Counted from the stretch's first letter, positions 5,015-19,492 are shown. The stretch is 64,000 bases of DNA from a virus (IMGVR_UViG_3300005259_000074:198471-262470), one strand, 5' to 3'. Notes: generated from the letters alone by a model not told the origin. Translations and numbers: made by a program.

Positions 5015-6226
5015 TTACTCCACTTCGACCGTGTCGTTCTCTGTCGAAGTGGGTTCTGATGAAGGAGCGCTTTCTTCACCGCTATTCTCAGTCAGCATCT
5101 TCTCGAGGTCAGCTTTGGAGTAAGACATATCGGCTTTCGATTTCTCGTTGAAAGCATCCAAGAACGTCGCCCATATCGCGTCGTTAGTCTCGATGTCCTT
5201 CCGACGAAGCTTGACATCTCGATAAGATGGGACTGTGTAGTACGCCCCCTCTTGCTTTATGAAACCGTATGAGATCGCAGCTTCGATCAGGCCGTCGTAC
5301 TTTGCGATGCCACTGGTGAAGTCGACGTACATCTCAGCCTCGAAGAACGGCTTGACTATCCTGTTCTTCGCGGTGAAGAACCTGAGCATGTTGCCCTTGT
5401 ACGTAGCTTCATCGCTAGCTTCTTCGGTCTTCACGAAGCGCCTGTCGCACTGGATGGATATCGTCGGGATGTATTTAGTGCCCTTGCCGCCGCCTTGCTC
5501 TTTGATCTTCGAAGGATACATCTGGTTAGTAGCGTCGTAGATGTGGTTGATGACGAGGATCGGAACATCGGACTTCATCGACGGTATAGTCAGACTCTTG
5601 AGGAGTGTGTTGCAGAGCCTCGCCCTAAGACCCATGTCCATCACTTGCTTGTCTTTGTCGACCGCGTCAGTGTACACCTTGTTGGTGACCAGAGCGCCGA
5701 GTGAGTCGAGGATTATCATGAACTTCGAGTCTTCGTTTCCAGGTTTTGTCTTGTACTCATCTAGAGCTGACAACACTTTCAACATCTGTTGGGTGGCATT
5801 CTCAACGCTCTCGCAGAGAACGTGCTCAATCTTATCAGGATCGAGATTGAAACCGGTCATCATGTCAACGAGACCTCCACCCTCGGAGTCGAAGTAGAAT
5901 ATGTGGCTGTACCCGTGTTTGTTCACCGCATTTGCGGCGATCCTAGCGGCAATGAGGCTCTTGCCCGACGCAGACTCACCAAACAGCATAGTCACGCGGC
6001 CTGCGGGAATGCCACCGTAGATGTCTCCGCTAACGATGCGGTTGAGAGCGAAACACCCGGTGTCGACGTAGTGAGACACGTGGGAGTACTTCGCATTCTT
6101 AAAGCTTGCAGAACCTGTCTCCTTGCGGATGCCTTTCAACAAGTCTCCTAGTCCCTTTGATGGAGCTTTCTGCTCTACTTCTGTCTTGTCTTTCTTAGCC
6201 ATTTGTTCTCCTGATTTTGAGTTCAA
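5015..6226 (-). CDS. uvsX: RecA-like recombinase UvsX
   Basis: DTGCFALNRIVSGDIYGGIPAGRV, GESASGKS, ILDSLGAL, LVINHIY, GGGKG, KNR. Confidence 0.96.
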   Translation of the reverse strand: MNSKSGEQMAKKDKTEVEQKAPSKGLGDLLKGIRKETGSASFKNAKYSHVSHYVDTGCFALNRIVSGDIYGGIPAGRVTMLFGESASGKSLIAARIAANAVNKHGYSHIFYFDSEGGGLVDMMTGFNLDPDKIEHVLCESVENATQQMLKVLSALDEYKTKPGNEDSKFMIILDSLGALVTNKVYTDAVDKDKQVMDMGLRARLCNTLLKSLTIPSMKSDVPILVINHIYDATNQMYPSKIKEQGGGKGTKYIPTISIQCDRRFVKTEEASDEATYKGNMLRFFTAKNRIVKPFFEAEMYVDFTSGIAKYDGLIEAAISYGFIKQEGAYYTVPSYRDVKLRRKDIETNDAIWATFLDAFNEKSKADMSYSKADLEKMLTENSGEESAPSSEPTSTENDTVEVE

Positions 6227-7417: not shown

Positions 7418-8269
7418 TCAGTTGTTGTTCCAGAGCCACTCGAAGAATTTGTCTCTGCTTATCGGCGCTTTTCCTTCAGTCATTCCCGAGATGTCCAAGA
7501 AAGGACTCCCGTCAGTGTACACTGGAGGCATGTCAATCCTAGGTAGTTCTACGGGGATGAAAGGCTTCTCCAGCATCTTGTTCACTAGGTCAAAATCTCT
7601 CTCGTAGATGTGGAGAGACACCGCATGGTGTGTGTACGATCCCAATTCCAAATCACGATACGACGGAAGCAGCTGTTTCCGCATGACCTGCATCAGGTAC
7701 AGGAAGAACGGAATGTCAAAACAAGTGCCGAGCACTGCGTCGTTAGACCTCATGATAGTCGACAAGTTCAACTTGTTGTCTCTGATGTTGAACACCGCAT
7801 TGAGAGTGCACACGAAGTCTTTGACACCAGGATAAGATACTTTCGGTTTGTTGAACCTAATGATAGCTTGACGGGTGTCTTTATCGTCCACTAGACTTCT
7901 GTACGCCCAAGTCCATTCTGTCAGACCGTGTTCGTTCTTCTCGTTGAAGATCAATTTACCGTAAGCAGAATTGCAAGTTCCATCTTCGTTGGCTATCTTC
8001 TTCCAGAACTTCGAGTACTTCTCGATGAACTCTAGGTCATTCCTCCCGGAGAAGTACCAGAGCAACTCGCCTTTCAAGTACTTCATTGGGATAGACCTGA
8101 CTTCGTTCTCGAAAGAATTGCTCCAGCAGTCATCTATGTGGATGACGGCATCAGTTATCTCGCGTATCTTCATCCCTCTCGGGGATGTGACGAAATCGGG
8201 CTTGTTCATTATCTCATTCAGCGCGCATCCGTAAGCTTCCGCGAACGTCTTCCCTCTTATCTCTCTCAC
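7418..8269 (-). CDS. Thymidylate-synthase-superfamily enzyme with dCMP-type specificity (dCMP hydroxymethylase/hydroxylase-like)
   Basis: TSPRG, NSAYG, DTRQA, catalytic FVCT, RSNDAVLGTCFD with Asp at the E. coli ThyA Asn177 position, YTHHAVSLHIYE. Confidence 0.85.
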   Translation of the reverse strand: MREIRGKTFAEAYGCALNEIMNKPDFVTSPRGMKIREITDAVIHIDDCWSNSFENEVRSIPMKYLKGELLWYFSGRNDLEFIEKYSKFWKKIANEDGTCNSAYGKLIFNEKNEHGLTEWTWAYRSLVDDKDTRQAIIRFNKPKVSYPGVKDFVCTLNAVFNIRDNKLNLSTIMRSNDAVLGTCFDIPFFLYLMQVMRKQLLPSYRDLELGSYTHHAVSLHIYERDFDLVNKMLEKPFIPVELPRIDMPPVYTDGSPFLDISGMTEGKAPISRDKFFEWLWNNN

Positions 8270-8802
8270 CAGCGTTTCTCCTCTGCTATCTGATCGAGTA
8301 TCGAATCTGCTATGTCACGCGGTGAAGAACTTAAGTCAGTTCTCACGGTGCGAAGATAGAACGGGCTGTGCTTGCAGAACACCGAGAATTTGCTCTGTAG
8401 TAGATCAATGTCTTTCACTGGAGGAGCAGTCTCGCCTCGAGATAGATGCCGCTGATGGACTATCTCCGGTTTGCACTCGACAAAGACGAGAGCGATGGGT
8501 AGAGATTTCCAGTGTTCTTCCAGACCTCGCAAATATTCTGGGTACCTATCTCTGTACTTCGGCCCGTACACGTACTCACCGGCCCATGCTCTGTCTAAGA
8601 CCAAGTTGCCTTCCATGATGTTGATCATCTCGAACAGCATGTCGAACTGGCCGAACTGGAAGCCGTACTTCTCTTCGACAGAGTTTCCTTTTGGGAAGGC
8701 GAAGTGGAACTGCTTTGCGTTCAGCGATCCGATCAACTCAGAGCAGATCGAGCTCTTACCCGAGCAGTCGACTCCCTCTAACACTATAGTCCTAACAGGC
8801 AT
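8266..8802 (-). CDS. dNMP (thymidylate-like) kinase
   Basis: IVLEGVDCSGKSS P-loop, LDRAW..EYVYG. Confidence 0.9.
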   Translation of the reverse strand: MPVRTIVLEGVDCSGKSSICSELIGSLNAKQFHFAFPKGNSVEEKYGFQFGQFDMLFEMINIMEGNLVLDRAWAGEYVYGPKYRDRYPEYLRGLEEHWKSLPIALVFVECKPEIVHQRHLSRGETAPPVKDIDLLQSKFSVFCKHSPFYLRTVRTDLSSSPRDIADSILDQIAEEKRW

Positions 8803-8848: not shown

Positions 8849-10078
8849 TCAGAGGTGAGTGATAGGCTGAGAATCGACTATCTTGACGAACTTCTGCCCA
8901 TCGAATCCCTCTACTGACTTCGTCTCGTCGTTGTACTTGACAAAAGAATAGTTCGTCATCTCACCTTCACCGCGGATGAACGGCAAGACTGCTGCGACCA
9001 TGTCTCTAGCAGTGCACGTCGGTACATTCTGCGCGACCATGTTGATATTCTTGCCGTTGATCTTCACCTTAGGATTGCTGTCAACTCCTGCAAGATTCAT
9101 GTCATGTGGTAGTCCCATCAAGTGCATCCACTCTCTGACATTTATCCAGCGGTCCTTCTTAGGATGGATACCATTCCACAGCACTCGGCCTTGGACTGCG
9201 TTGATATGGGAGTTGGGGATAATTATCGTGTTATCCCAGACACCCTTTCCCTCCGCAAGTTTCATGATGAGGCGTTTGCACATCCTCAGAGTGTCTTTGT
9301 CTCCCATCTCCTCGCAAACTTTCATGAGTCCTGCGACGTAGTCAGGATTCTTGTAGATCATGCTCGTGACAGATTTGCAACCGTCGATATGGTCTCTGAA
9401 ATTCTTACCGAACTGCTTGACCATCCAGTTGTAGCTTCCGGACACATCCTCGAGCTTGTCGAATCCGTGTGTGAAGTGCTTTTGGTACGTGGCATTCTTC
9501 GGAATGTCTTTCAAATAGGCGGAAAGATCCGGAGAATCGACGTTAGGCATGACGATGCTCGGGCACTTATTGCTTTTGAAGAACACGTAGAACGTGCGGT
9601 GGCGATGCTGTGGTATGCCGTGGAGATATGTGTCAGTCTTAAGCAGCATCAAAGACCTGTTGTACTTCTTAGCGATGTCCAACAGCGCATTCTGCACTTT
9701 GACTCCCGACTGGGTGAACAACCTCGGAGCGTTCTCCCCCATCGCGACAGTCGCATCGAACCTACCGAGGGCGTCTTCAGCGCTCCTGTACACCCACTTT
9801 ATCGACTCGTACTCAGCCGAAGACTGAGAATTGAGAGAGCTAAGCGCGCTACAAGGCGGGGTCATGACGATTAAATCGTATTTCTCCGATTTTGGAGCTG
9901 TCTCAGAATCCAATGACACATATGGGACGTCTTTCCAATATTCTACGAGATTCGTATCGTGTCCTTGAAATCCATCATATGAGTAGATCATATGAGGTTT
10001 TGATCCTATGGCCTTAGATGCGCCGAGGGGAAATCCTCCTATCAGTGGAATTAGTGGTGCCCATTTGATGCCCTTCAT
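8849..10078 (-). CDS. C5-cytosine DNA methyltransferase-fold protein with atypical motif I
   Basis: TPPCS (IV), GENAP (VI), HGIPQHRHRT (VIII), RWINVRE (IX), AQNVP (X); motif I reads IPLIGG instead of FxGxGG. Confidence 0.85.
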   Translation of the reverse strand: MKGIKWAPLIPLIGGFPLGASKAIGSKPHMIYSYDGFQGHDTNLVEYWKDVPYVSLDSETAPKSEKYDLIVMTPPCSALSSLNSQSSAEYESIKWVYRSAEDALGRFDATVAMGENAPRLFTQSGVKVQNALLDIAKKYNRSLMLLKTDTYLHGIPQHRHRTFYVFFKSNKCPSIVMPNVDSPDLSAYLKDIPKNATYQKHFTHGFDKLEDVSGSYNWMVKQFGKNFRDHIDGCKSVTSMIYKNPDYVAGLMKVCEEMGDKDTLRMCKRLIMKLAEGKGVWDNTIIIPNSHINAVQGRVLWNGIHPKKDRWINVREWMHLMGLPHDMNLAGVDSNPKVKINGKNINMVAQNVPTCTARDMVAAVLPFIRGEGEMTNYSFVKYNDETKSVEGFDGQKFVKIVDSQPITHL

Positions 10079-11283
10079 TAATGCTCCTTGGTTATTGAGG
10101 CGACGGCTTTCATCACAGTGTCATCGAGATGATCGCCGTTGAAATACTTGTCAGCCATGAGGCTGTATATGTGGTCTAATATCTTATCGTACTCATCTTT
10201 GTGAGTCTCCAGATGCTCTATCCTATCCCACATCTCCTTAGGAGTGTTGACTCTGAGTATCTCGGGAACATCGAACAACTTATCGACATCGTACTTGGGG
10301 TGGAAGAACGGGATGATGCCGTAGTACAGCATCTTCCAGAATTTCTGCGTCACGAATCCCGGTAGTTTCTTGAAGAACGGTGGAATGAAAGTGTACTTAC
10401 TGTCCCAGAATATGAACTCGACGTTCTTTATAGCGCACTCCTCGAATACGCCCGGCCACTTAGCCGTGAAATCTTTATCCCACTTTCCGTATATCTTCAT
10501 GCCGTCACGGTGAGAAGGATCATTCAAGAGCCATTCTTCGACTATGCCTTGACGATCGCCTCCGCCGTTCAACCCCATGACGAACTTCGTAGACTTCTTC
10601 ATAGTCCTGAAGTCTATCTTCGGTTCATCGAGTAAGAACACTGTCTCCACTCCGGCGTATTTGAACTTGTTCTCCGCCATGCGGTACTCTTGTGAATCGT
10701 ACTTTCCTCCGGCTATCCTCCGGTTGTACTTGGTGATGTTGATCTGAGACAGGATGAATTTCTCGTCGTTCAAGATGTCTCTGGATTTCTTCGGAATATA
10801 CCGGGGGTCACCATTGATGAGGAAATACGGAACTCCCGTCATGTTGAGAGTATGATATATCGGAGCTGCATACACTTCGAACATCAACAGGCACTTGGCA
10901 TCGTGCAGTTCGCCCATCACAGTCTTCGTCCCGACGCCTGGGACGTTGATTCCACCTTCCGGCCCTTGGTATATGATTCCAGCATCGAACTTTATTCCAG
11001 TCTCCTGCACCTTTTTAAGCATCCAGTGGCACAGTTCTTTCCGGCAGTCCTTGATCCCCACTGGTATGTCTTTGAACATATCTACGATGTTATCGGGGAT
11101 GTCTATGCCGGACAGACGAGCTTTCTTGATGTCAGACCTGCCGATCAAGAAGAATTTGTCCTCCGGATGTCGGCGCGCTAGCATCGTGTACAGCAGAGGA
11201 GCTTCTTCATCTCCTGCGTACATTGACCACTTGCGTTTGTCGAAATATATCGAACGGCCGATCTTACCTATCAAGTAATTCAT
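10078..11283 (-). CDS. DNA glycosyltransferase, T4 beta-glucosyltransferase/arabinosyltransferase-like GT-B fold
   Basis: Segments GDPRY, GGGDR..IVEEWL, KIYGKW, GFVTQKFWKMLYYGIIPFFHPKYD, LRVNTPKEMWDRIEHL parallel T4 BGT TDIRL, GQRE..MVEFL, EFFG, NFITLRVWE, FYVNNRAELIDRVNEL. Confidence 0.8.
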   Translation of the reverse strand: MNYLIGKIGRSIYFDKRKWSMYAGDEEAPLLYTMLARRHPEDKFFLIGRSDIKKARLSGIDIPDNIVDMFKDIPVGIKDCRKELCHWMLKKVQETGIKFDAGIIYQGPEGGINVPGVGTKTVMGELHDAKCLLMFEVYAAPIYHTLNMTGVPYFLINGDPRYIPKKSRDILNDEKFILSQINITKYNRRIAGGKYDSQEYRMAENKFKYAGVETVFLLDEPKIDFRTMKKSTKFVMGLNGGGDRQGIVEEWLLNDPSHRDGMKIYGKWDKDFTAKWPGVFEECAIKNVEFIFWDSKYTFIPPFFKKLPGFVTQKFWKMLYYGIIPFFHPKYDVDKLFDVPEILRVNTPKEMWDRIEHLETHKDEYDKILDHIYSLMADKYFNGDHLDDTVMKAVASITKEH

Positions 11284-12875
11284 ATGAGTCCATCTTTCTT
11301 CAGTAATTTTGTCAGCATGTTCTTCCCCAAATAATACAGAAACAGGACGTAAGGCCAGTCATGCAGCGCGGCAATATTGAGGTATATGAGAGCTGTGAGG
11401 TAGTCAACCTTCTTCACGTCGTATCGGTTGCTCTTCAACCACTCGTCGAACGCCTTCTCCACTTCAACTAAACGGTGCGGTCTATCGATGTCGATGACTG
11501 CATGATTGTCATCGATATTTTTCACCATAAATTTCCCCTCGTGCACCGATTTGTGCGGGACTATCAACCCGTGCTTGAACTTCGCGAAGTCGTAGTAAGC
11601 GTCGCCAAATTCTCTGTCACCGCAGAAATTTTGCCGCCAGTCGAGGAGACCTGGTGTCCCATCATCTTTGATGATGATGTTCTCGTTGTGAAAATCTCCG
11701 TGGAACCTCGATATGTGATAGTCATTCGTTAAGAATTTCCAAGGGACTCTGTCTAGAAGATCTTTCGTGTTGTTGCCGTTGGGATCTAAGTCATTTATGA
11801 TGTCGACTTTATCAGTCATCTCGAAGTTTTTGTAGAACTCGCTAACCCTCTTGTACGTCTTGATCCTATAGAATTCATCCATGACTTTGTGTTGGTCGAC
11901 ACCAGTGATGCGAGGAGATCTCACATTCCACATCTTGTCTTTGACTTCATCGAGAACTTTGATGACGTTGACGTCATTGACGACGTCGGACATGATGGTT
12001 CCCTCTATCAATTCATAGGTGTAGCAATACTCGTTGTGGGACAGCAGTTGGGGGAGAAGTTCTATCGGAAGATTCAGCATCCTCTCGACTCTGTCGGAAA
12101 TGAACTTCTTATCGACTGAGAACTTGATGACTTTGTCATCATGAAACCAGATGGCTTCTCCGTCTTTCTCCAATATGTTATGCTCAGTGTCTCTGAACTT
12201 CTTCTTAGCGGCTTCGAGGGCCAGCACGTTTCCCGTGTCGTACCATTCTCTGATCTCAACCCCCTTAATGTTGGTCAACGACTTGAGCGCATAAGACTCA
12301 CCCACAGGCACAGCTTCACTCTCATGCATGTGCTTCCAGAACAGCTGATAGTCTTTAACACCACAGAGTCCGATGTAAGCGTTGCGGGCGCCAAAAGCGT
12401 CTTTGGGATTTATAGAAGCCACGTTCCCGACATCATCGAGTGTGATGGTCCGATACTTTGATGCATCGGATTTCGCGTCGAGAACGTAATACGCCATCCA
12501 ATTGTTGCGAGTTGGATCGAAATCAATCACATCTTTCGCTATAGTGTCATTGGAACAGAATACGAATGGACACTGCAGTTCGCTCTCTGCTGACAAAAGG
12601 GTGTAGCCTAGGCCGGACTTAGGTCCTTCGTAGTCGTCGACTGTGACAAAAGTCTTGTTGACATGGGGGAATATCTGCTCTACTACGGCCTTAACCATGT
12701 CACCTTTGTACCCGAGTATGATGACGAACTCGTCAGCGTGAGGGAAAGACTCGATGATGTGCGCGATGACCGGGATCTGCCCGATAGTCAACAGCGCTTT
12801 ATTGATGTTCTTCGAGTAGTCTCTGACCCTCGTCCCAAGACCGGCAGTCGGAATGACGACTTTATACTTACTCAA
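11280..12875 (-). CDS. Fused sugar-phosphate nucleotidyltransferase and aminoglycoside/choline-kinase-like sugar kinase
   Basis: N-term VVIPTAGLGTRV..NKAL, CSND, WYDTG; C-term FHGDFHNENI..LLDWRQ..GDAYYDFAK. Confidence 0.9.
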   Translation of the reverse strand: MSKYKVVIPTAGLGTRVRDYSKNINKALLTIGQIPVIAHIIESFPHADEFVIILGYKGDMVKAVVEQIFPHVNKTFVTVDDYEGPKSGLGYTLLSAESELQCPFVFCSNDTIAKDVIDFDPTRNNWMAYYVLDAKSDASKYRTITLDDVGNVASINPKDAFGARNAYIGLCGVKDYQLFWKHMHESEAVPVGESYALKSLTNIKGVEIREWYDTGNVLALEAAKKKFRDTEHNILEKDGEAIWFHDDKVIKFSVDKKFISDRVERMLNLPIELLPQLLSHNEYCYTYELIEGTIMSDVVNDVNVIKVLDEVKDKMWNVRSPRITGVDQHKVMDEFYRIKTYKRVSEFYKNFEMTDKVDIINDLDPNGNNTKDLLDRVPWKFLTNDYHISRFHGDFHNENIIIKDDGTPGLLDWRQNFCGDREFGDAYYDFAKFKHGLIVPHKSVHEGKFMVKNIDDNHAVIDIDRPHRLVEVEKAFDEWLKSNRYDVKKVDYLTALIYLNIAALHDWPYVLFLYYLGKNMLTKLLKKDGLI

Positions 12876-13630
12876 AGTGCTTCTCCTATGAGTTTTCTCA
12901 AGTTGCAGATATTCTGGTGTATAGTGTTCCGTCGATCATCTCTGTTAGACGGAAGATTCTTAAAGATTGTCGAGGTCCCACACACGATGTTGTTGAATGC
13001 CATATTGGTGATGTCCTTGACAGTAGTAGGTTTCACCCCACCATCTAGCTGTATCATGTCGAGTTCTTTGCCGAAACGAGCATTCATCTCCCTACCGATA
13101 GTTATCGCGTGGAATTCGCGTGAAGTCTGGACCAACACGCCCGGGTGTATGCCCATCATGACCAGCATGTTGATCTCGTTAGCTCCGATGACGTAATCGA
13201 GATGGTGGTAGTTGGACGTCAAGTTCATTGCGATGCCGGGTTTCTTTCCTCCAGCGCGGATCCTATCGCACAGCCGATAGGTGTTCTCCTCGTTTCCATC
13301 AAAATGGAAATTGATGTACTCGACATTAGCTATCTTAGTGAATGCATCTATGGCCAGTGTTGGTTCATCGACCATCAGGTGGACATCCATCGGGATATCA
13401 GTAGTGTCAGCGATGCGCGATGCGATTTCAGGATATATCCCGTAACGTGGGACATAGTGTCCGTCCATCACGTCAATGTGCATGTAGTCGACACCAGCGT
13501 CGACGCATGTCTTCACGTCTTCACCAAGCGTCATCGGATCCATGCATATGACTGACACTGATATGAAATTCTTGTCTATCATCGCATCACTCCAAAATTG
13601 AATGGTTGTAGCTGATCCATCTAGCATCAA
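12872..13630 (-). CDS. rpe: Ribulose-phosphate 3-epimerase family protein (Rpe/AlsE)
   Basis: HIDVMDGHYVP, DVHLMV, YINFH, MGIHPG, QLDGGV motifs. Confidence 0.92.
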   Translation of the reverse strand: MMLDGSATTIQFWSDAMIDKNFISVSVICMDPMTLGEDVKTCVDAGVDYMHIDVMDGHYVPRYGIYPEIASRIADTTDIPMDVHLMVDEPTLAIDAFTKIANVEYINFHFDGNEENTYRLCDRIRAGGKKPGIAMNLTSNYHHLDYVIGANEINMLVMMGIHPGVLVQTSREFHAITIGREMNARFGKELDMIQLDGGVKPTTVKDITNMAFNNIVCGTSTIFKNLPSNRDDRRNTIHQNICNLRKLIGEAL

Positions 13631-14129
13631 GCTGAAGGTCTTTCACTATATCGTGAGCCATAGCGTCGAACAGAACGAATGTGAACTGCTCAAATGCAGT
13701 CTTCATCATCTGTTTGGACTTGAAATCACCATAAGTGAGACACACTGAAGACAACTTTCCGATCGGTGTGTCGCTCGATGAGCACACCGATATGATCGTC
13801 GCTCCAGCATCTTTAGCCTGGGATGCCAGCAGTGCGATCGTCGGAGTAGATCCGGAAGATGAATTGACGATCACCAAATCACCGGAGCCCACTCGTGGGA
13901 CTACGGTGTCGCCGATGAACGTCGCATCATAACCGATGTGTCCCAACCTCATGATGAAAGCTCTGAGAGAGTAACCCATGCGACCTGCGCCCAGACCGAC
14001 GATCTTCTTATCGATTCCTTTTCTGATCTTCAGCTCTCCGATGAAATCCTTGTATTTCACTTCATCCAACGATTCATACAATTCGGTCATCTCGTTGATA
14101 GATGTCAGGAAACTGCCTCCGGTGATCAC
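13587..14129 (-). CDS. SIS-domain phosphosugar isomerase, HxlB/PHI-like
   Basis: GAGRMGYSLRAFIMRLGHIG..IGDTVVP..GDLVIVNSSSGST..FEQ. Confidence 0.88.
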   Translation of the reverse strand: MITGGSFLTSINEMTELYESLDEVKYKDFIGELKIRKGIDKKIVGLGAGRMGYSLRAFIMRLGHIGYDATFIGDTVVPRVGSGDLVIVNSSSGSTPTIALLASQAKDAGATIISVCSSSDTPIGKLSSVCLTYGDFKSKQMMKTAFEQFTFVLFDAMAHDIVKDLQLDARWISYNHSILE

Positions 14130-14623
14130 TTGTTCATCTCCTTTATTATCATCTGAGCTACATAGAATAACACACCCTCTCCTCCTCCGACTGGAAGTAT
14201 CTTCACATTAGAAGGAAGATCGATGAATCTAGTGCGCGACGCCGTGTCTATCAGAGAGTTCTTCGGAGCGAAACCGACCTCACACAACTTCATTGCTTCT
14301 ACGTCATAATAGCCATCGCCGACAAAAGCTACTCCAGAATATGGATCTCCATTGATTATGTCGCTGATGAACTTAATTCTCTCAGATTCAGACACTTGGT
14401 GTGATTCTACTTTCATGTCAATAAGACGACACTCAGTGATAGGCCAACCGCGCTTGTCAGCTGATATGGCTATGATGTTGATACCAGCGTTTCTTAACAT
14501 CTTCACGCCATCAGCGTCATGTGCGCCAAATGTCTTTGACTGTTTACCGTCTTTGGTGTAGACGAAACGTCCATCAGTCAGAACACCGTCTACGTCGGTG
14601 ATCACAGTCTTAATGTGCAGCAT
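14126..14623 (-). CDS. HAD-superfamily sugar phosphatase, KdsC-like
   Basis: ITDVDGVLTDG, AFVGDGYYD, GGGEG. Confidence 0.92.
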   Translation of the reverse strand: MLHIKTVITDVDGVLTDGRFVYTKDGKQSKTFGAHDADGVKMLRNAGINIIAISADKRGWPITECRLIDMKVESHQVSESERIKFISDIINGDPYSGVAFVGDGYYDVEAMKLCEVGFAPKNSLIDTASRTRFIDLPSNVKILPVGGGEGVLFYVAQMIIKEMNK

Positions 14624-14692: not shown

Positions 14693-17287
14693 TCACAAAG
14701 AGTTGATATCTGACACTTCTTCTTTAGTCGGGTCAAAGCTCTTCCAATTGTGGTTCCTCTCGAATCCCTTCAGAGGACTGAGCACGACTTTCTCGAACAT
14801 GGTCATGTAATCTATCGCAAACATCTCGTCGAACTCGGTCGGCCACGTGTCTTTCCAACCTATGACCTCTATGCCGTAGTCGTTCCTCTTCACGTAGACG
14901 TACCTCAGCCTATCACCTGGCTGTATAGTCTGGTACTTATGCGCTAAGTTCAACTTCTCAACGAGTTGGTTGTAATATATCGCACCTTTTGCATGAGCTC
15001 CCGCGCCCTTCCCAGCTTTCAAGAACCCAATGACTTCTTTCTCCGTAGAGTAGTTCTTAATGTATCCCAGGTCTTCAGGCTTCATAGAGGTGAACGCGTT
15101 CCACGTCGATGATATGAAATCTCTGTACTGGGATGAAGTCCATTTTTCAGTCATTCCCCGCTTTATCGCATCTGCTAAGATGCCTTTGACTTTGAACGGC
15201 AGTTCGTTCTTCTTGACATCTACACCGACGAATTTGAACTTGTCGACCGAGAGACCTTCTAGATCTCTCAAGTGGAGGACGTAGTGTTTCTTCGCGATGA
15301 AGTCTCCTTCGCTGCACAGAGTCTCCCTTTTGAACTCGATTCGTTTCAGAGGAGAACCGAATATCTCCTTAGTCACCCTGAAACAGTTCTCATTCATTCT
15401 ATTGACAAAATTGTCATCCAACTCTCTGCATATCTTCTGGATGTTTGTCTTCGTCCATTTGACGTCGCCGGAACCTACTACCTTCTCTGTCATCTTACTT
15501 AAGTCAAGATATAGACTGTCCGTGTCGCCAGCAATGACGATATCTGAAGTAGCACTATACATCTCAGAAAACAACTTGTTAGCATACTCAGCTGATTCTT
15601 TGATGATCCTCTGACCGGATAGAGTAACAGCTTCAGCGTTGTCTAGGTCGTATAGAGGAAAGTGCTCACTACCTACTTGTCCATAGATGCTGTTCAAGAA
15701 GACTTTGTACGCGCCTTGAATGATGTCGTGCTGGTCGGCTTGCTTCTTCAGTTCTTTAATCTGCGTGTCATCTTTAGACATTCCATTCTCGATCAGCGCT
15801 TGTGCTTTCTTCTGAAAAGTCTGAGCTTGTTTTTTATGACTCTTCCTAGAATCATACAGTTTCTCGAGGAAAGATGGAATGATGCCTTTCTTCACATCTG
15901 GAAGAATGTAGAGAACTTTGTTGTTTGAGATGATCGACTTCGTGCGAAGAGCAGCAAACTCGTCTTTCGACAGTCGCTTGATCTTTCCGTCGGCTTTCTT
16001 TATCTCGACGTAACCGTCCATCTCCTGTGTGACTTTGCCTATCTTGGTCTCAGGAGATATGTTGAGAGTTATCATCGTGTTCGGGTACAGAGAGTTCAAG
16101 TCGAGGGATGTCACCCCTTTGTCGAAGAATCCGACTTGCGGCTCGAAGACAAATGCGCCTTCGAACCCCTCGTTCTGACCTTTATCATCTCTCGAATCAG
16201 ATAGCAGTTTCACGCCGTTCTTTCGCGCCTGGATCGTGAGAGCTCCGTAGATGTAGGGCTGAGACTTGAAGATGTTCTCATATTCGACTAACCCCATGTT
16301 GCATATGTATCGAGTCAGATCAATGAATTTCTTCTTCTTGTCTAACTTCACGCACAACTCTACGTCTCGCACGTTGTACTTGACGAAGAGGTCGAAGTCT
16401 TTCTCGGCGAACTCTCTGATAGTGTCGTATGGATTCTTTATCTTAGTCACACCCAGTTCATCAGCGCAGATGTCGCCGAGTTTGTACGACTCTTTCGATC
16501 CAAGCTCGAACTTCGCTTTGTAGAGGATGTAGTAGTCGAGGATAGACACTCCAGTCACCTTATAAGACGCTATCGGCATCGAGTCTCCCCGCTGCTCGCG
16601 GTAGCTCTTCCTCACTTCTCCGAGGGGGGACAAGACGTTGATCGCTCCATCGTCTAGTATCTTGTCGCAGCGGTTGACTAAGTAAGGCAAGTCGAACCGC
16701 TCGACGTTCCACCCACTCAGTACGTCCGGACAGTTGTCTTTCCACCACGAGAGGAAAGATTTCAACAGTTCTGTCTCGTCGTCAAAGCAGAGCAGTTCTG
16801 TCGGCACTTCACTGCCAGACAAGTCGGCTGTCCCGAGAGTCCACGTGTGATACTTTTCACTCAGCGTGTCAAACACTGTTATCACGTTGACGGGTTCTTT
16901 GGCTTCTTCTGGCTCCGGGAATGCGTTCTTGACTTGCACTTCTATGTCCAGAAAGAACGTCCTGAGGGGGAAAGATGCGAAAGCTGGAGAATCTATCACA
17001 TTCTCAAACTGCTGGACTAGGAATTCTCTGGCAGGGGGAAGACACTCGAATATCCTACAATCTGGATTCTGGTTGAGCCACTTGCGGCGCAATGATATGT
17101 TGGTGAAGTCTTTCCTGCGCAGCATGGTGCTGAACATCGATTTCACCGAACCCCTGATGTCTTCGTAATAGAGGTACGAATTGTGGGGGAACACTCTGGT
17201 GACGCGGTTGCCGTTCTCGTCCCACGTGAACAGCACGATTTCACCCTGGAACGAATCATTGATCCTGTAATGGATGTTTCGGTACAT
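14693..17287 (-). CDS. gp43: Family B DNA polymerase (gp43)
   Basis: Exo DIEV, GWNVERFD, YNVRD; pol DLNSLYP, KVFLNSIYG, AGDTDS, KKHY. Confidence 0.98.
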   Translation of the reverse strand: MYRNIHYRINDSFQGEIVLFTWDENGNRVTRVFPHNSYLYYEDIRGSVKSMFSTMLRRKDFTNISLRRKWLNQNPDCRIFECLPPAREFLVQQFENVIDSPAFASFPLRTFFLDIEVQVKNAFPEPEEAKEPVNVITVFDTLSEKYHTWTLGTADLSGSEVPTELLCFDDETELLKSFLSWWKDNCPDVLSGWNVERFDLPYLVNRCDKILDDGAINVLSPLGEVRKSYREQRGDSMPIASYKVTGVSILDYYILYKAKFELGSKESYKLGDICADELGVTKIKNPYDTIREFAEKDFDLFVKYNVRDVELCVKLDKKKKFIDLTRYICNMGLVEYENIFKSQPYIYGALTIQARKNGVKLLSDSRDDKGQNEGFEGAFVFEPQVGFFDKGVTSLDLNSLYPNTMITLNISPETKIGKVTQEMDGYVEIKKADGKIKRLSKDEFAALRTKSIISNNKVLYILPDVKKGIIPSFLEKLYDSRKSHKKQAQTFQKKAQALIENGMSKDDTQIKELKKQADQHDIIQGAYKVFLNSIYGQVGSEHFPLYDLDNAEAVTLSGQRIIKESAEYANKLFSEMYSATSDIVIAGDTDSLYLDLSKMTEKVVGSGDVKWTKTNIQKICRELDDNFVNRMNENCFRVTKEIFGSPLKRIEFKRETLCSEGDFIAKKHYVLHLRDLEGLSVDKFKFVGVDVKKNELPFKVKGILADAIKRGMTEKWTSSQYRDFISSTWNAFTSMKPEDLGYIKNYSTEKEVIGFLKAGKGAGAHAKGAIYYNQLVEKLNLAHKYQTIQPGDRLRYVYVKRNDYGIEVIGWKDTWPTEFDEMFAIDYMTMFEKVVLSPLKGFERNHNWKSFDPTKEEVSDINSL

Positions 17288-17325: not shown

Positions 17326-18168
17326 TCAGATGCTGTCGAGGACTTTTCTGATTTCTTCTTCGAAGCGGCATTCCTTCAAAATGCTGACGATCTTGGAGAA
17401 CTTATCAGATGGAATTCGCTGAAAATCAGTTGAACCACCGTTGGCGAAATAAGATACGGTGTCAGAAGAAGTAGACAGTCTGAAATAGTTATTGCCTTTC
17501 AGGAAGTCTAGGCTGAAATTTATCGACAACCCGGATGTATCATTTGCGGCGTTGTCATAACTTATTCCCGGTGGGTTGACGAGGTAGTAGTGCTTGTAGT
17601 TCTTTCCTAAGAGGCGCTTGAGCTTCAGGAGTCCACCCCAGAAATACTCGAGGTCTGGCGGTTCCGTCCAGCCGAACTGACCGTAGTGCTTTGGGTCTTT
17701 CCTGAGCAAGTTGGACCTGTACCCGGAGATAGACAGGGGGTGGTCAACCCAAACTGGGCGCTTCACGTAGGCATTCACATACGCTATCTTCGGTAAGTAG
17801 TCTTTGGTGACGTCGAGGTCTTCGTATTCTTTGAACAGCTGGATAGACACTATGGCCGCGGTGTTGGGTCCTGTAGCTGGATTCGGCGAGGACATCAGAG
17901 CTGATGCTTCGTCGAGCATCTTTCGCGCAAGATTCTCCCTGTAACCTCTAGCTCGGAATTCGTTGCAGCAGATGAAAAAATAGGCGACTAACGCCTGAGA
18001 ATATCCTTGCCACATCACGAAAGCGGGATGTCTTCTCCACGCCTTCTTCTCTCTGTCGAGCAAGAGGTGTATCATCTGATAGCACTCTAGCCGTTGCTTT
18101 CCGAGCCTCTTAGTGTCCAGACACCTGACGCTAGAGAGAAAGTTGTCGTAAGGCATGAATGTATTCAC
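17326..18168 (-). CDS. Pyrimidine-dimer DNA glycosylase/DenV-superfamily protein with C-terminal extension
   Basis: MNTFMPY..LDTKRLGKQRLECYQ..WRRHPAFVMWQGY..SNLLRKDP..Y. Confidence 0.75.
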   Translation of the reverse strand: MNTFMPYDNFLSSVRCLDTKRLGKQRLECYQMIHLLLDREKKAWRRHPAFVMWQGYSQALVAYFFICCNEFRARGYRENLARKMLDEASALMSSPNPATGPNTAAIVSIQLFKEYEDLDVTKDYLPKIAYVNAYVKRPVWVDHPLSISGYRSNLLRKDPKHYGQFGWTEPPDLEYFWGGLLKLKRLLGKNYKHYYLVNPPGISYDNAANDTSGLSINFSLDFLKGNNYFRLSTSSDTVSYFANGGSTDFQRIPSDKFSKIVSILKECRFEEEIRKVLDSI

Positions 18169-18656
18169 AAGTTGAACTTCTCGACTACGACGTTATTCTT
18201 TAGCAGCATCTCTTTGACTTCATTGTCGTCAAAGCCGTATTCAGCTCTACAGTACTCATCGCTGTAGACTATTCTTTTGACTCCAGCTTGGATTAACATC
18301 GGAAGACAGCGACAACACGGCTGTAGAGTGCTAAACATAGTCGAGCCTTCGATCTTCACCCCGTTCTTAGCGGCAGCTAAAATCGTGTTGAGCTCCGAAT
18401 GTATCTCATTTTTGAGAGACCACTCGTGGTGTTCTCTCCTCTCTTCATCCATGATGTATCCGGCGTCTTTCCACTGAGGAAACTTGTCGCAGCAGTTGAT
18501 AGATCCCGCGACAGTCCCGTTGACGCCCATAGAGACGACTCTGTCATCTCTGACGAGGATCGCTCCTACCTTTATAGACACACACTTAGACAACTTAGCT
18601 GCGGAGAAGGCCATCTCCATGAAAACTCGGTCTTTAAGAGAGCTCATCGCTCTCAC
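18165..18656 (-). CDS. cd: dCMP deaminase
   Basis: KVGAIL..GVNG, IHSELN, PCCRC. Confidence 0.93.
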   Translation of the reverse strand: MRAMSSLKDRVFMEMAFSAAKLSKCVSIKVGAILVRDDRVVSMGVNGTVAGSINCCDKFPQWKDAGYIMDEERREHHEWSLKNEIHSELNTILAAAKNGVKIEGSTMFSTLQPCCRCLPMLIQAGVKRIVYSDEYCRAEYGFDDNEVKEMLLKNNVVVEKFNL

Positions 18657-18925: not shown

Positions 18926-19492
18926 TTAGGTGATACCGTTGCCAGTCGAACCAAATCCGTCACTGCCGCGCGTAGATGTGAATGAGTAGAGTTCATTCAC
19001 ACTCGCGATCTCCACTAGTTCTTCGTCATTTATCGGGATCATCACTAGCTGAATGATCTTCTCCCCTGCTGATATACTTACGGAAGTGTCAGACAAGTTG
19101 GCGATAGATATGTGTGCTTCACCTTGGTAACCTGCATCTAACAGGTTTGCCATGAACACTATGCCTTTTTTGGAAGACACGCCAGACTTATTGCAAGCGA
19201 TCAGCGCCCAACCTTTAGGGATGTCAAAATGAATCCCTGCTGGTATTTTCACTCTGCCGAGAGGGCCGATCACTATAGATGACACGATTTCATCTTCAGC
19301 ACTCTCATAGATATTGCATATCTTAGAACGGAAGGTCACATTGAATGAATCATGAAAATTGAAATTGCCTCGACGCAGATCAGTGGGTACAAACATATCA
19401 AAACCTGCGTCAAGGGCATGTCCCCTGACAGGAGACTTGACGTCTCTTACCTTCGAGAACCTTATCTTAGGATACTTCACACTTTCCTCCAT
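18926..19492 (-). CDS. dut: Trimeric dUTPase
   Basis: AGFD, NKSG, LDAGYQGE, IIQL, RGSDGFGSTG. Confidence 0.95.
   Translation of the reverse strand: MEESVKYPKIRFSKVRDVKSPVRGHALDAGFDMFVPTDLRRGNFNFHDSFNVTFRSKICNIYESAEDEIVSSIVIGPLGRVKIPAGIHFDIPKGWALIACNKSGVSSKKGIVFMANLLDAGYQGEAHISIANLSDTSVSISAGEKIIQLVMIPINDEELVEIASVNELYSFTSTRGSDGFGSTGNGIT

What the first reader, a model, noticed from the sequence alone, without database searches (positions are those of the whole stretch)
12872..14129. Epimerase plus PHI-like isomerase predicts a DNA sugar that is neither glucose nor arabinose
Seen: an Rpe/AlsE-family 3-epimerase overlapping an SIS isomerase that by eye looks HxlB/PHI-like rather than KdsD-like. 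Known chemistry: Ru5P isomerises to ribose or arabinose 5-P without an epimerase; Rpe gives xylulose-5-P, whose aldoses are xylose and lyxose; the homologue AlsE converts F6P to allulose-6-P, whose aldoses are allose and altrose. Inferred: the base may be a xylosyl-, lyxosyl-, allosyl- or altrosyl-(hydroxymethyl)cytosine, which I am not aware of as a described DNA modification.
Basis: inference. Interest (0 to 1): 0.85.

Follow-up and report, generated by a model that had tools for sequence, protein, structure and literature searches.

The report
Phage rare-sugar front end for DNA
A giant uncultured T4-like phage carries, next to its DNA polymerase, a specialised sugar-phosphate epimerase and isomerase that probably define a rare sugar (unlikely to be glucose or arabinose) which the phage activates and attaches to hydroxymethylcytosine in its DNA; which sugar it is cannot be read from sequence.

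Summary
12872-13582(13630) encodes an Rpe-family epimerase, and 13587-14129 encodes a SIS isomerase that is PHI/HxlB-like, not KdsD-like.

Both sit in a translationally coupled operon:
- KdsC-like HAD phosphatase
- SIS isomerase
- Rpe-like epimerase
- nucleotidyltransferase + APH-kinase fusion (NTK)
- glycosyltransferase (GT) whose best structural match is T4 beta-glucosyltransferase
- C5-MTase-like protein
- dNMP kinase
- gp42-like dCMP hydroxymethylase

The operon lies between gp43 and uvsX, where RB69 keeps its arabinosylation genes.

The epimerase is not a housekeeping Rpe or an AlsE. It belongs to a separate clade with remodelled active-site cap loops (PGVLxQ, VPR). It lies beside the PHI-like SIS in all 11 distinct contexts examined: marine T4-like phages, Alphaproteobacteria and CPR bacteria.

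HAD and NTK (plus, in cells, a methyltransferase) form a portable back end. Other loci join it to other front ends (a PMI-type cupin, or a weakly GatZ-like protein plus cupin), and one phage adds dehydratase and aminotransferase genes. These are hexose-type enzymes.

My reading is that SIS and the Rpe-like enzyme define a 3-epimerised rare sugar. An allulose-6-P-derived hexose is slightly favoured over a Xu5P-derived pentose. Arabinose is not excluded (about 0.2), because PHI stereochemistry applied to Ru5P gives Ara5P.

Earlier scan notes found the same cassette in uncultured bacteria. The link to DNA is the new part.

The parts
12872..13582 (-). Rpe-family sugar-phosphate 3-epimerase of a distinct, cassette-specific clade. 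Probable start is ATG 13582; the longest ORF reaches 13630.
   Evidence: Pfam PF00834 at 1.5e-36. Below the rpe and AlsE cut-offs. Metal and catalytic residues H51, D53, H84 and D196 are kept, but the lid reads PGVLVQ instead of PGFGGQ, and VPR replaces VPN. Forms a separate clade at 99/96 support. Start codon.
13587..14129 (-). PHI/HxlB-like single-domain SIS sugar-phosphate isomerase, a family of its own.
   Evidence: TIGR03127 at 1.7e-31, below its cut-off; kpsF at 0.0036. PHI structures match at 1e-34. The family has invariant SSGxT, K143, E147 and a C-terminal NHSILE. No HPS gene and no second SIS gene in the phage genome.
14126..14623 (-). KdsC/YrbI-like HAD-IIIA phosphatase, predicted to remove the terminal phosphate.
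   Evidence: TIGR01670 at 1.1e-17. DVDG and GDGYYD motifs present. Conserved in the cassette.
11280..12875 (-). Fusion of a sugar-1-P nucleotidyltransferase (N-terminal) with an APH-fold kinase (C-terminal), called NTK here. Same architecture as AfhE.
   Evidence: Pfam NTP_transf_3, NTP_transferase and APH. PHROG 4098 matches full length at 4.7e-17. GLGTR and HGDFHNEN motifs present. Weakly collinear with RB69 p053/p052. 1599 homologues.
10078..11283 (-). GT-B glycosyltransferase, predicted to transfer the sugar onto hmC in DNA.
   Evidence: AlphaFold model with pLDDT 94.8. Best Foldseek PDB hits are T4 beta-glucosyltransferase: 1qkj at E 4.8e-09, 1c3j at TM 0.55/0.65. 355 homologues.
8849..10078 (-). 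C5-cytosine DNA methyltransferase-like protein. It is a conserved partner of the GT in related phages; its role is unknown.
   Evidence: Pfam DNA_methylase at 4.7e-13. Adjacent to the GT in L004, L016 and L019.
8266..8802 (-). Thymidylate-kinase-like dNMP kinase, predicted to phosphorylate the modified dCMP.
   Evidence: PHROG 761 at 7.8e-13. Same position as RB69 p045.
7418..8269 (-). Thymidylate-synthase-family enzyme of the dCMP hydroxymethylase (T4 gp42 / MilA) type.
   Evidence: PDB matches: MilA at 4e-25, T4 gp42 at 2e-19. Motif RSND...D, that is Asp169 and Asp177 in E. coli ThyA numbering. RB69 p048 reads RSQN, the D169N signature of 5hodCMP synthases (PMC13326640).

Best explanation
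The two genes are the sugar-defining front end of a phage-encoded nucleotide-sugar pathway that decorates 5-hydroxymethylcytosine in the phage's DNA.

Proposed route. A ketose phosphate from central metabolism is 3-epimerised by the specialised Rpe-like enzyme. The PHI-like SIS enzyme isomerises the product to a rare aldose phosphate. The kinase half of NTK phosphorylates the anomeric carbon. The KdsC-like HAD removes the terminal phosphate. The nucleotidyltransferase half of NTK makes the NDP-sugar. The T4-BGT-like GT transfers the sugar to hmC, which is supplied by the gp42-like enzyme and the dNMP kinase.

What is shown:
- the family assignments;
- intact catalytic motifs;
- operon coupling;
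- conservation of the four-gene cassette;
- the separate clade of the epimerase;
- the fold of the GT.

What is inferred: the order of the steps, the substrate and the acceptor.

Which sugar. The epimerase is only needed if its product is not already a host metabolite. The same back end is joined elsewhere to hexose-type enzymes. I therefore favour F6P -> D-allulose-6-P -> D-altrose-6-P or D-allose-6-P (about 0.35). The PHI/API-type and PMI-type stereochemical course would both give altrose. Next comes Xu5P -> D-lyxose-5-P or D-xylose-5-P (about 0.2). Taken together, 'a rare sugar that is neither glucose nor arabinose' has a probability of about 0.6.
For: 1. Family assignments and intact motifs.

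2. Start and stop codons overlap along the operon.

3. SIS and the Rpe-like gene are adjacent in all 11 distinct contexts examined, and a KdsC-type HAD is detected in all but one (L013):
- the window and L002;
- TARA T4-like phages (L004-7) and L016;
- Rhodobacterales FZCC0188 (L003);
- L013, L014 (L015 is a shorter copy) and the P0318 contig;
- Saccharibacteria (L008) and Patescibacteria (L009)
.

4. The cassette epimerases form one side of a 99/96-supported branch, apart from canonical Rpe and E. coli AlsE. Bit scores drop from 141 to 116 between the two groups.

5. Clade-specific PGVLxQ occurs in 55 of 58 members and VPR in 57 of 58. Canonical sequences have PGFGGQ in 58 of 62, and VPN. Both changes lie in the two loops that cap the Rpe active site (PMC8756792).

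6. Both CPR genomes hold a second Rpe-family gene outside the cassette.

7. The back end is portable. Marine virus AG-345-E15 has HAD + PMI-type cupin (1.3e-31) + NTK + a dehydratase-like gene. Marinomonas and Aliiglaciecola have HAD + a weakly GatZ/KbaZ-like protein + PMI-like cupin + methyltransferase + NTK. Their HAD and methyltransferase are 44-49% identical to those of SIS-Rpe cassettes.

8. Phage L019 has HAD + NTK + GT + C5MT without SIS or Rpe, but with dehydratase and aminotransferase genes.

9. On the NTK tree the front-end types are intermixed.

10. The GT model's best structural match is T4 BGT.

11. The TS homologue has Asp169 and Asp177, as T4 gp42 does.

12. The operon is syntenic with the RB69 arabinosylation cluster between gp43 and uvsX. 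RB69 uses a KdsD-type API and no Rpe.
Against: - No biochemical data exist for any member of either subfamily.
- The Rpe-like enzyme keeps all catalytic residues and the beta7/beta8 phosphate binders, so ordinary Ru5P/Xu5P activity is fully possible.
- PHI stereochemistry applied to Ru5P gives Ara5P, so a PHI-like enzyme can be a functional API.
- E. coli AlsE, the only known hexulose-6-P member of the family, keeps PGFAGQ and does not group with the cassette clade.
- The GatZ/KbaZ assignment of the alternative front end is weak (E 2.6e-05).
- The NTK tree has only 11 rows and several open forks.
- The acceptor (DNA hmC) is inferred from fold and context only.
Confidence: 0.6

Rival explanations
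1. Arabinose after all. The Rpe-like enzyme only converts Xu5P to Ru5P to raise supply. The PHI-like SIS acts as an arabinose-5-phosphate isomerase. NTK and HAD make NDP-D-arabinofuranose as in RB69 and HY126. The product would be arabinosyl-hmC, which differs from the known arabinosyl-5hoC only in the linker.
For: - Same genomic position and same back-end logic as the RB69 cluster.
- The NTK is a distant, collinear relative of RB69 p053/p052 and matches PHROG 4098.
- The stereochemical course of PHI maps exactly onto Ru5P -> Ara5P (inference).
- All Rpe catalytic residues are kept.
- Capsule loci are known to duplicate housekeeping enzymes, for example KpsF, which is present in L003.
Against: - A mere flux helper should keep canonical motifs and be lost or replaced often. 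Instead a monophyletic, motif-altered clade is present in all 11 contexts.
- Arabinosylating phages manage without rpe and use a KdsD-type API.
- L003 carries a KpsF-type API next to the cassette, so the SIS there would be redundant as an API.
- The nearest interpretable relatives of the back end work with hexose-type enzymes.
Confidence: 0.2
2. PHI acts first. The SIS enzyme is a true PHI that converts F6P to D-arabino-3-hexulose-6-P. The Rpe-like enzyme epimerises this Ru5P analogue at C4. The SIS enzyme then returns it to a 2-ketose of the tagatose-6-P series, or carries it on to talose or galactose 6-P. The pair would thus act as a two-enzyme fructose-6-P 4-epimerase.
For: - Hu6P has the same carbonyl-to-phosphate spacing as Ru5P but a longer C1 end. 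The cassette clade keeps the beta7/beta8 phosphate binders and changes the capping loops.
- The alternative front end in Marinomonas and Aliiglaciecola is weakly GatZ/KbaZ-like, a family tied to tagatose phosphates, and it feeds orthologous back-end enzymes.
Against: - It requires the SIS enzyme to catalyse two or three different carbonyl shifts, or an unseen aldose-ketose isomerase.
- No precedent exists for an Rpe-family enzyme acting on a 3-ketose.
- The GatZ match is weak.
- The PGFGGQ loop also contacts the phosphate, so the loop changes are ambiguous.
Confidence: 0.1
3. The NDP-sugar is not for DNA. It feeds virion or host-surface glycosylation, for example through the phage's separate GT2 operon. 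Alternatively, Rpe and SIS are auxiliary metabolic genes that boost the pentose phosphate pathway for nucleotide synthesis.
For: - In bacteria the cassette serves surface or flagellar glycan loci.
- An earlier first-reader note reports a GT2 operon 6.8 kb upstream of the window (not checked by me).
Against: - In phages the cassette is always embedded between gp43 and the TS homologue, dNMP kinase, BGT-like GT and C5-MTase-like genes, with overlapping stop and start codons.
- The GT's best structural match is the DNA-modifying T4 BGT.
- A plain metabolic helper gene would not need NTK and HAD.
Confidence: 0.07

Closest known systems
Afh pathway for arabinosyl-5-hydroxycytosine in RB69, DLP3 and HY126 (PMC13326640; Thomas 2018, PMC6024577)
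   Same: - Same position between gp43 and uvsX.
- Same logic: isomerase, NT+kinase fusion, HAD phosphatase, GT-B transferase, TS-family base-modifying enzyme and TMPK-like kinase.
- The NTK is a distant homologue.
   Different: - The isomerase is PHI-like, not KdsD-like.
- There is an extra, obligate Rpe-like epimerase.
- The HAD is KdsC-like, not the small RB69 type.
- The GT is BGT-like and not detectably related to the RB69 arabinosyltransferases.
- The TS homologue has Asp169 (hmC type), not the D169N signature of 5hodCMP synthases.
- A C5-MTase-like gene is added.
T4 hydroxymethylcytosine glucosylation (gp42, gp1, alpha- and beta-glucosyltransferases)
   Same: - A gp42-type dCMP hydroxymethylase signature.
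- A GT whose best structural match is T4 BGT.
   Different: T4 uses host UDP-glucose. This phage encodes its own four-enzyme NDP-sugar route, so a different donor is expected.
GDP/ADP-heptose pathway (GmhA, HddA/HldE, GmhB, HddC)
   Same: The same four chemical steps: a SIS isomerase on a ketose phosphate, an anomeric kinase, a HAD-IIIA terminal phosphatase and a nucleotidyltransferase.
   Different: - The SIS is PHI-like, not GmhA-like.
- The kinase has the APH fold, not the GHMP or PfkB fold.
- An epimerase is added.
RuMP pathway pair HPS-PHI (HxlA-HxlB), and E. coli AlsE of the allose operon
   Same: - The SIS protein is most similar to PHI.
- The epimerase belongs to the Rpe/AlsE family, and AlsE shows that the family can act on a hexulose-6-P.
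   Different: - There is no HPS in the phage.
- Both proteins score below the equivalog cut-offs.
- The epimerase groups neither with Rpe nor with AlsE.

Membership tests
Ribulose-phosphate 3-epimerase (Rpe, TIGR01163 / PF00834) | Pfam domain and the catalytic/metal residues (His, Asp, His, Asp) | tested here: met
   PF00834 at 1.5e-36. H51, D53, H84 and D196 are invariant in the cassette family and align with Rpe and AlsE.
Ribulose-phosphate 3-epimerase (Rpe, TIGR01163 / PF00834) | Score above the equivalog cut-off, and placement among canonical Rpe sequences on a tree | tested here: not met
   136.6 bits against a cut-off of 212.6. Separate clade at 99/96 support. Score gap from 141 to 116 bits.
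Ribulose-phosphate 3-epimerase (Rpe, TIGR01163 / PF00834) | Canonical capping-loop motifs PGFGGQ and VPN | tested here: not met
   PGVLVQ and VPR here. In the clade, 55 of 58 and 57 of 58 carry these; canonical sequences have PGFGGQ in 58 of 62.
D-allulose-6-phosphate 3-epimerase (AlsE, NF007266) | Score above the cut-off, or grouping with E. coli AlsE | tested here: not met
   109.1 bits against a cut-off of 271. AlsE groups with canonical Rpe, on the other side of the branch. Activity on F6P/allulose-6-P cannot be tested with these tools.
6-phospho-3-hexuloisomerase (PHI/HxlB, TIGR03127) | Best profile and structure matches; SxSGxT phosphate loop; C-terminal His-x-x-Leu-Glu | tested here: met
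   TIGR03127 at 1.7e-31. PHI structures match at 1e-34 to 1e-31. SSGST and NHSILE are conserved.
6-phospho-3-hexuloisomerase (PHI/HxlB, TIGR03127) | Score above the equivalog cut-off, and a partner HPS gene | tested here: not met
   109.5 bits against a cut-off of 160. No PF00215 (OMPdecase/HPS-type) match in the 262-kb genome. The family has an invariant Lys143 where PHI has Gly.
KdsD/KpsF/GutQ arabinose-5-phosphate isomerase | Profile match, and usually tandem CBS domains | tested here: not met
   TIGR00393 at E 0.0036, 16.9 bits against 203.7. No CBS domain. No BLAST match to RB69 p055. API activity itself cannot be tested here.
Afh-type phage NDP-sugar back end (AfhE + AfhF) | NT + APH-kinase fusion with a HAD phosphatase in a DNA-modification cluster | tested here: met
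   Domains and motifs. Weak collinear homology to RB69 p053/p052. Synteny.
5hodCMP synthase (TS homologue with D169N) | Asn at the position of E. coli ThyA Asp169 | tested here: not met
   The window has RSND (Asp); RB69 p048 has RSQN. The signature is described in PMC13326640.
T4 beta-glucosyltransferase-like DNA glycosyltransferase | GT-B fold with BGT as the nearest solved structure | tested here: met
   Model pLDDT 94.8. Foldseek top hits are 1qkj, 1nzd, 1j39 and 1c3j at E 5e-09 to 2.5e-07 and TM 0.50-0.65. Sequence identity is only 12-14%, so this shows fold-level likeness, not membership of the Pfam family.

The most novel reading that the evidence does not exclude
Marine T4-like phages replace cytosine with hydroxymethylcytosine carrying a rare aldohexose derived from allulose-6-phosphate: D-altrose or D-allose. 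The donor is made by a previously uncharacterised four-enzyme route (a new Rpe-clade hexulose-6-P 3-epimerase, a PHI-derived aldose-ketose isomerase, and a kinase/nucleotidyltransferase with a phosphatase that together bypass a phosphomutase). Bacteria use the same route for surface glycans. This would be a new DNA base and two new enzyme specificities.
Probability: 0.35. Interest if true: 0.85.

Novelty: new variant of a known kind. Interest (0 to 1): 0.68.

Why it matters
Phage DNA sugars decide which restriction, CRISPR and type IV defence systems can act on a phage. They also disturb sequencing and DNA-handling enzymes. So far only glucose, arabinose and a few hexoses are known on cytosine derivatives.

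This cassette is common in marine T4-like phage contigs. It is shared with surface-glycan loci of Alphaproteobacteria and CPR bacteria, and no member of it has been characterised. Four small soluble enzymes and one GT are enough to test it in vitro, so the question can be addressed directly.

The modular picture also matters. One HAD+NTK back end is joined to several different front ends (SIS+Rpe-like, PMI-type cupin, weakly GatZ-like protein plus cupin), and one phage adds dehydratase and aminotransferase genes. This predicts a range of different sugars on phage DNA.

Tried and rejected
- Megablast of the cluster against the phage collection found nothing.
- tblastn of the SIS protein found only weak hits to bacterial-like contigs. 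The NTK found one marine virus at 35% identity.
- Single-sequence scans of IMG/VR with the SIS and Rpe proteins found no confirmed relative.
- The GTDB scan with the SIS profile found only two CPR genomes. No cultured organism with a known glycan structure carries the SIS-Rpe version, so the sugar could not be read from a solved polysaccharide.
- Literature searches for rpe or PHI in phage DNA modification or polysaccharide loci gave nothing relevant. The E. coli O-antigen review only confirms that the route to NDP-xylulose is unknown.
- The first fold of the GT, from 4 sequences, was unusable (pLDDT 43). A sequence search of the GT against the PDB was empty.
- The ESM Atlas gave only generic 'SIS domain' clusters.
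- HPS was searched for in the phage genome and is absent.
- I considered and dropped a Kdo-type reading (SIS + KdsC-like HAD + NT). There is no KdsA or NeuB-type synthase in the phage cassette, and the NT is of the sugar-1-P type.
Full report
**What is there**

The window is the last 64 kb of a 262,470-bp IMG/VR virus record that is 97% complete. Its replication module resembles that of T4: ligase, DnaB-type helicase, UvsX, family-B polymerase, denV, dCMP deaminase and a dUTPase-family protein.

A run of minus-strand genes lies between the polymerase (14693-17287) and uvsX (5015-6226). Their stop and start codons overlap or nearly touch. In order they are:

| Coordinates | Product |
|---|---|
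| 14126-14623 | KdsC-like HAD phosphatase |
| 13587-14129 | SIS isomerase |
| 12872-13582(13630) | Rpe-family epimerase |
| 11280-12875 | nucleotidyltransferase + APH-kinase fusion (NTK) |
| 10078-11283 | 401-aa GT |
| 8849-10078 | C5-DNA-methyltransferase-like protein |
| 8266-8802 | thymidylate-kinase-like protein |
| 7418-8269 | thymidylate-synthase homologue |

**The observation**

The epimerase matches PF00834 at 1.5e-36. It stays below the curated cut-offs of both Rpe (136.6 against 212.6 bits) and AlsE (109.1 against 271 bits).

The SIS protein matches the PHI/HxlB model at 1.7e-31 (109.5 against a cut-off of 160 bits), and KpsF/GutQ only at 0.0036. A family profile finds the solved PHI structures at 1e-34 to 1e-31. 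It finds API-type single-SIS structures only at 1e-08 to 3e-05.

The stated overlap is an artefact of taking the longest ORF. The likely start is ATG 13582, behind a GGAG, 4 nt after the SIS stop codon.

**Context: a DNA-glycosylation operon at the RB69 position**

RB69 has, between gp43 and uvsX, an API, an NT/kinase (p053:052), a HAD (p051), a TS homologue (p048), a GT (p046:047) and a TMPK-like kinase (p045). Lee et al. (NAR 2026, PMC13326640) assign these to UDP-arabinofuranose synthesis and to arabosylation of 5-hydroxycytosine, following the AfhE/AfhF work on HY126. More precisely, the paper reports arabinosylated 5-hydroxycytosine.

The window's operon sits at the same position and follows the same logic, but most parts are only distantly related or unrelated:
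- NTK against p053: E 2e-05. NTK against p052: E 1e-03.
- TS homologue against p048: 25% identity.
- No detectable similarity for the SIS, HAD or GT proteins.

The TS homologue reads RSND...D. That is Asp169 and Asp177 in E. coli numbering, as in T4 gp42 and MilA. RB69 p048 reads RSQN, the D169N signature of 5hodCMP synthases. The predicted acceptor is therefore hmC, not 5hoC.

The GT has no sequence match in the PDB. With a 65-sequence alignment it folds at pLDDT 94.8. Its best Foldseek hits are T4 beta-glucosyltransferase entries (E 4.8e-09; TM up to 0.55/0.65), ahead of generic GT-B enzymes.

**The pair is a conserved unit, and the epimerase is not housekeeping Rpe**

The SIS protein has 178 homologues at E <= 1e-05, mostly 45-57% identical and from marine metagenomes. 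They form a tight family with invariant SSGxT, K143, E147 and a C-terminal NHSILE.

In every context I opened, the SIS gene is followed directly by the Rpe-like gene, and NTK and a KdsC-type HAD lie nearby (a HAD could not be identified only in L013). The contexts are:
- the near relative L002;
- TARA T4-like contigs of 200-255 kb (L004-L007) and L016, which also carry the GT and the C5-MTase-like gene;
- Rhodobacterales bacterium FZCC0188 (L003);
- two further marine bacterial contigs (L013, L014) and the P0318 contig;
- a Saccharibacteria MAG and a Patescibacteria MAG (L008, L009).

In the bacterial cases the neighbours are Wzx flippases, GTs, methyltransferases and NeuB, that is, surface-glycan loci.

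The Rpe-like proteins of these cassettes score 141 bits or more against the window protein. Ordinary Rpe sequences then follow at 116 bits or less.

On a maximum-likelihood tree of 50 sequences, all 27 cassette epimerases lie on one side of a branch with 99/96 support. Canonical Rpe (including Salmonella Rpe) and E. coli AlsE lie on the other side.

The clade keeps the metal and catalytic residues and the beta7/beta8 phosphate binders. It replaces PGFGGQ by PGVLxQ (55 of 58) and VPN by VPR (57 of 58); canonical sequences have PGFGGQ in 58 of 62. These two segments are the loops that cap the Rpe active site, and the second Gly of the GG pair contacts the phosphate (PMC8756792).

Both CPR genomes have a second Rpe-family gene elsewhere. 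The phage has no HPS and no other SIS gene.

**A portable back end with exchangeable front ends**

The NTK family is large: 1599 proteins at E <= 1e-10. Homologues with different neighbours are informative:
- Marine virus AG-345-E15 has a small HAD, a PMI-type cupin (TIGR01479, 1.3e-31), NTK and a GDP-mannose-dehydratase-like gene.
- Marinomonas colpomeniae and Aliiglaciecola lipolytica have a HAD, a weakly GatZ/KbaZ-like protein (E 2.6e-05), a PMI-like cupin, a methyltransferase and NTK, inside polysaccharide or flagellin-glycosylation loci.
- Their HAD and methyltransferase are 44-49% identical to those of SIS-Rpe cassettes.
- The T4-like contig L019 has HAD, NTK, GT (54% identical to the window's) and the C5-MTase-like gene without SIS or Rpe. 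It has two NAD-dependent dehydratase/epimerase genes and a DegT aminotransferase.
- On an 11-sequence NTK tree the front-end types are intermixed. The NTKs of the GatZ-like/cupin type group with a SIS-Rpe NTK (96/96). The cupin-only NTK groups with the CPR SIS-Rpe NTKs (100/100).

HAD and NTK therefore act as a general route that bypasses a phosphomutase: sugar-omega-P to sugar-1,omega-bisP to sugar-1-P to NDP-sugar, as shown for AfhE and AfhF according to PMC13326640. The front end decides which sugar enters.

**Which sugar**

This part is inference. Three points guide it.

1. Xu5P and Ru5P are both host metabolites. An epimerase that is never lost and has its own active-site signature is best explained if it makes something the host does not supply. 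Within this family the precedent is AlsE (F6P to allulose-6-P).
2. The interpretable front ends and tailoring enzymes joined to this back end are hexose enzymes (PMI-type cupins, 4,6-dehydratase-like enzymes, an aminotransferase). The GT's nearest fold uses a UDP-hexose.
3. PHI itself binds hexulose-6-phosphates.

These points favour F6P -> allulose-6-P -> altrose-6-P or allose-6-P. Both the PHI/API and the PMI stereochemical courses would put the new C2 hydroxyl in the altro configuration.

Against this, AlsE keeps PGFAGQ and is not in the cassette clade. A pentose route (Xu5P to lyxose-5-P or xylose-5-P) remains plausible.

D-arabino-3-hexulose-6-P is Ru5P extended by CH2OH at C1, and F6P is Ara5P extended in the same way. 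PHI chemistry on Ru5P is therefore the API reaction. I give arabinose about 0.2.

A third possibility is that PHI acts first and the Rpe-like enzyme epimerises Hu6P at C4, giving the tagatose series. This fits the altered cap loops and the weakly GatZ-like alternative front end, but it needs extra isomerisation steps (about 0.1).

**Novelty**

I found no paper that describes an Rpe-like or PHI-like enzyme in a phage DNA-modification cluster or in a characterised NDP-sugar pathway. No record in the phage collection carries the SIS-Rpe pair at more than about 30% identity.

Earlier follow-ups of this scan independently described the same four-gene cassette in uncultured bacteria as an uncharacterised rare-sugar activation module. 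My results agree. They add the phage DNA context, the epimerase clade and its motifs, and the exchangeable front ends.

I class the finding as a new variant of a known kind: phage-encoded NDP-sugar synthesis for cytosine glycosylation. There is a realistic chance that the resulting base is new.

Noticed in passing
window 8849-10078 (-); L004 12084-13301; L016 11026-12222; L019 9843-11060: A C5-cytosine DNA-methyltransferase-like gene always follows the BGT-like GT in the related T4-like phage clusters, whether or not SIS and Rpe are present. Its role next to a dCMP hydroxymethylase is unexplained.
   Followed up: partly
L019 224-11060 (GCA_005802045.1 contig SXGR01094496.1): A T4-like phage contig has HAD, NTK, GT and the C5-MTase-like gene but no SIS or Rpe. 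It has two NAD-dependent dehydratase/epimerase genes and a DegT aminotransferase. This predicts an amino-deoxyhexose on its DNA.
   Followed up: partly
L001 7320-9551 (Marine virus AG-345-E15, MH319741.1): A small HAD, a PMI-type cupin and an NTK homologue (35% identical) lie next to a GDP-mannose-dehydratase-like gene and a GHMP kinase. This is a mannose-type version of the same activation module in a marine virus.
   Followed up: partly
L017 6906-10572 (Marinomonas colpomeniae); L018 5819-10572 (Aliiglaciecola lipolytica): Cultured Gammaproteobacteria carry the same HAD, methyltransferase and NTK back end with a weakly GatZ/KbaZ-like protein plus a PMI-like cupin in place of SIS and Rpe. In Aliiglaciecola the locus lies beside Maf and flagellin genes. 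These strains could serve as an experimental entry point.
   Followed up: partly
L003 9288-10442; L008 5153-6283; L013 9815-10933; L014 2806-3948; L018 7866-8990: A methyltransferase of about 375 aa accompanies the bacterial cassettes. It matches PF13489, with weak matches to the C-terminal domain of sugar C-methyltransferases (PF08484). It is absent from the phage versions, so the bacterial product is probably a methylated form of the same sugar.
   Followed up: no
L003 4561-5463 and 15143-16069 (Rhodobacterales bacterium FZCC0188): The cassette lies downstream of a phage-type integrase and next to an ABC transporter and a KpsF-type (SIS+CBS) isomerase. It may sit on a mobile capsule island. 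A separate API lies beside the PHI-like SIS.
   Followed up: no
whole record G000: IMG/VR classes this T4-like, 97%-complete record as a 'provirus'. The window's own proteins are on record from a 313,637-bp contig, longer than the 262,470-bp record. The ends of the genome may deserve a look.
   Followed up: no
window 18926-19492 (-): A dUTPase/dCTP-deaminase-family protein and a dCMP deaminase (18165-18656) flank denV. Relatives such as L004 and L016 instead carry a MazG-type (PRA-PH) pyrophosphatase near the TS gene. How dCTP is excluded from the DNA in this phage is not clear.
   Followed up: no
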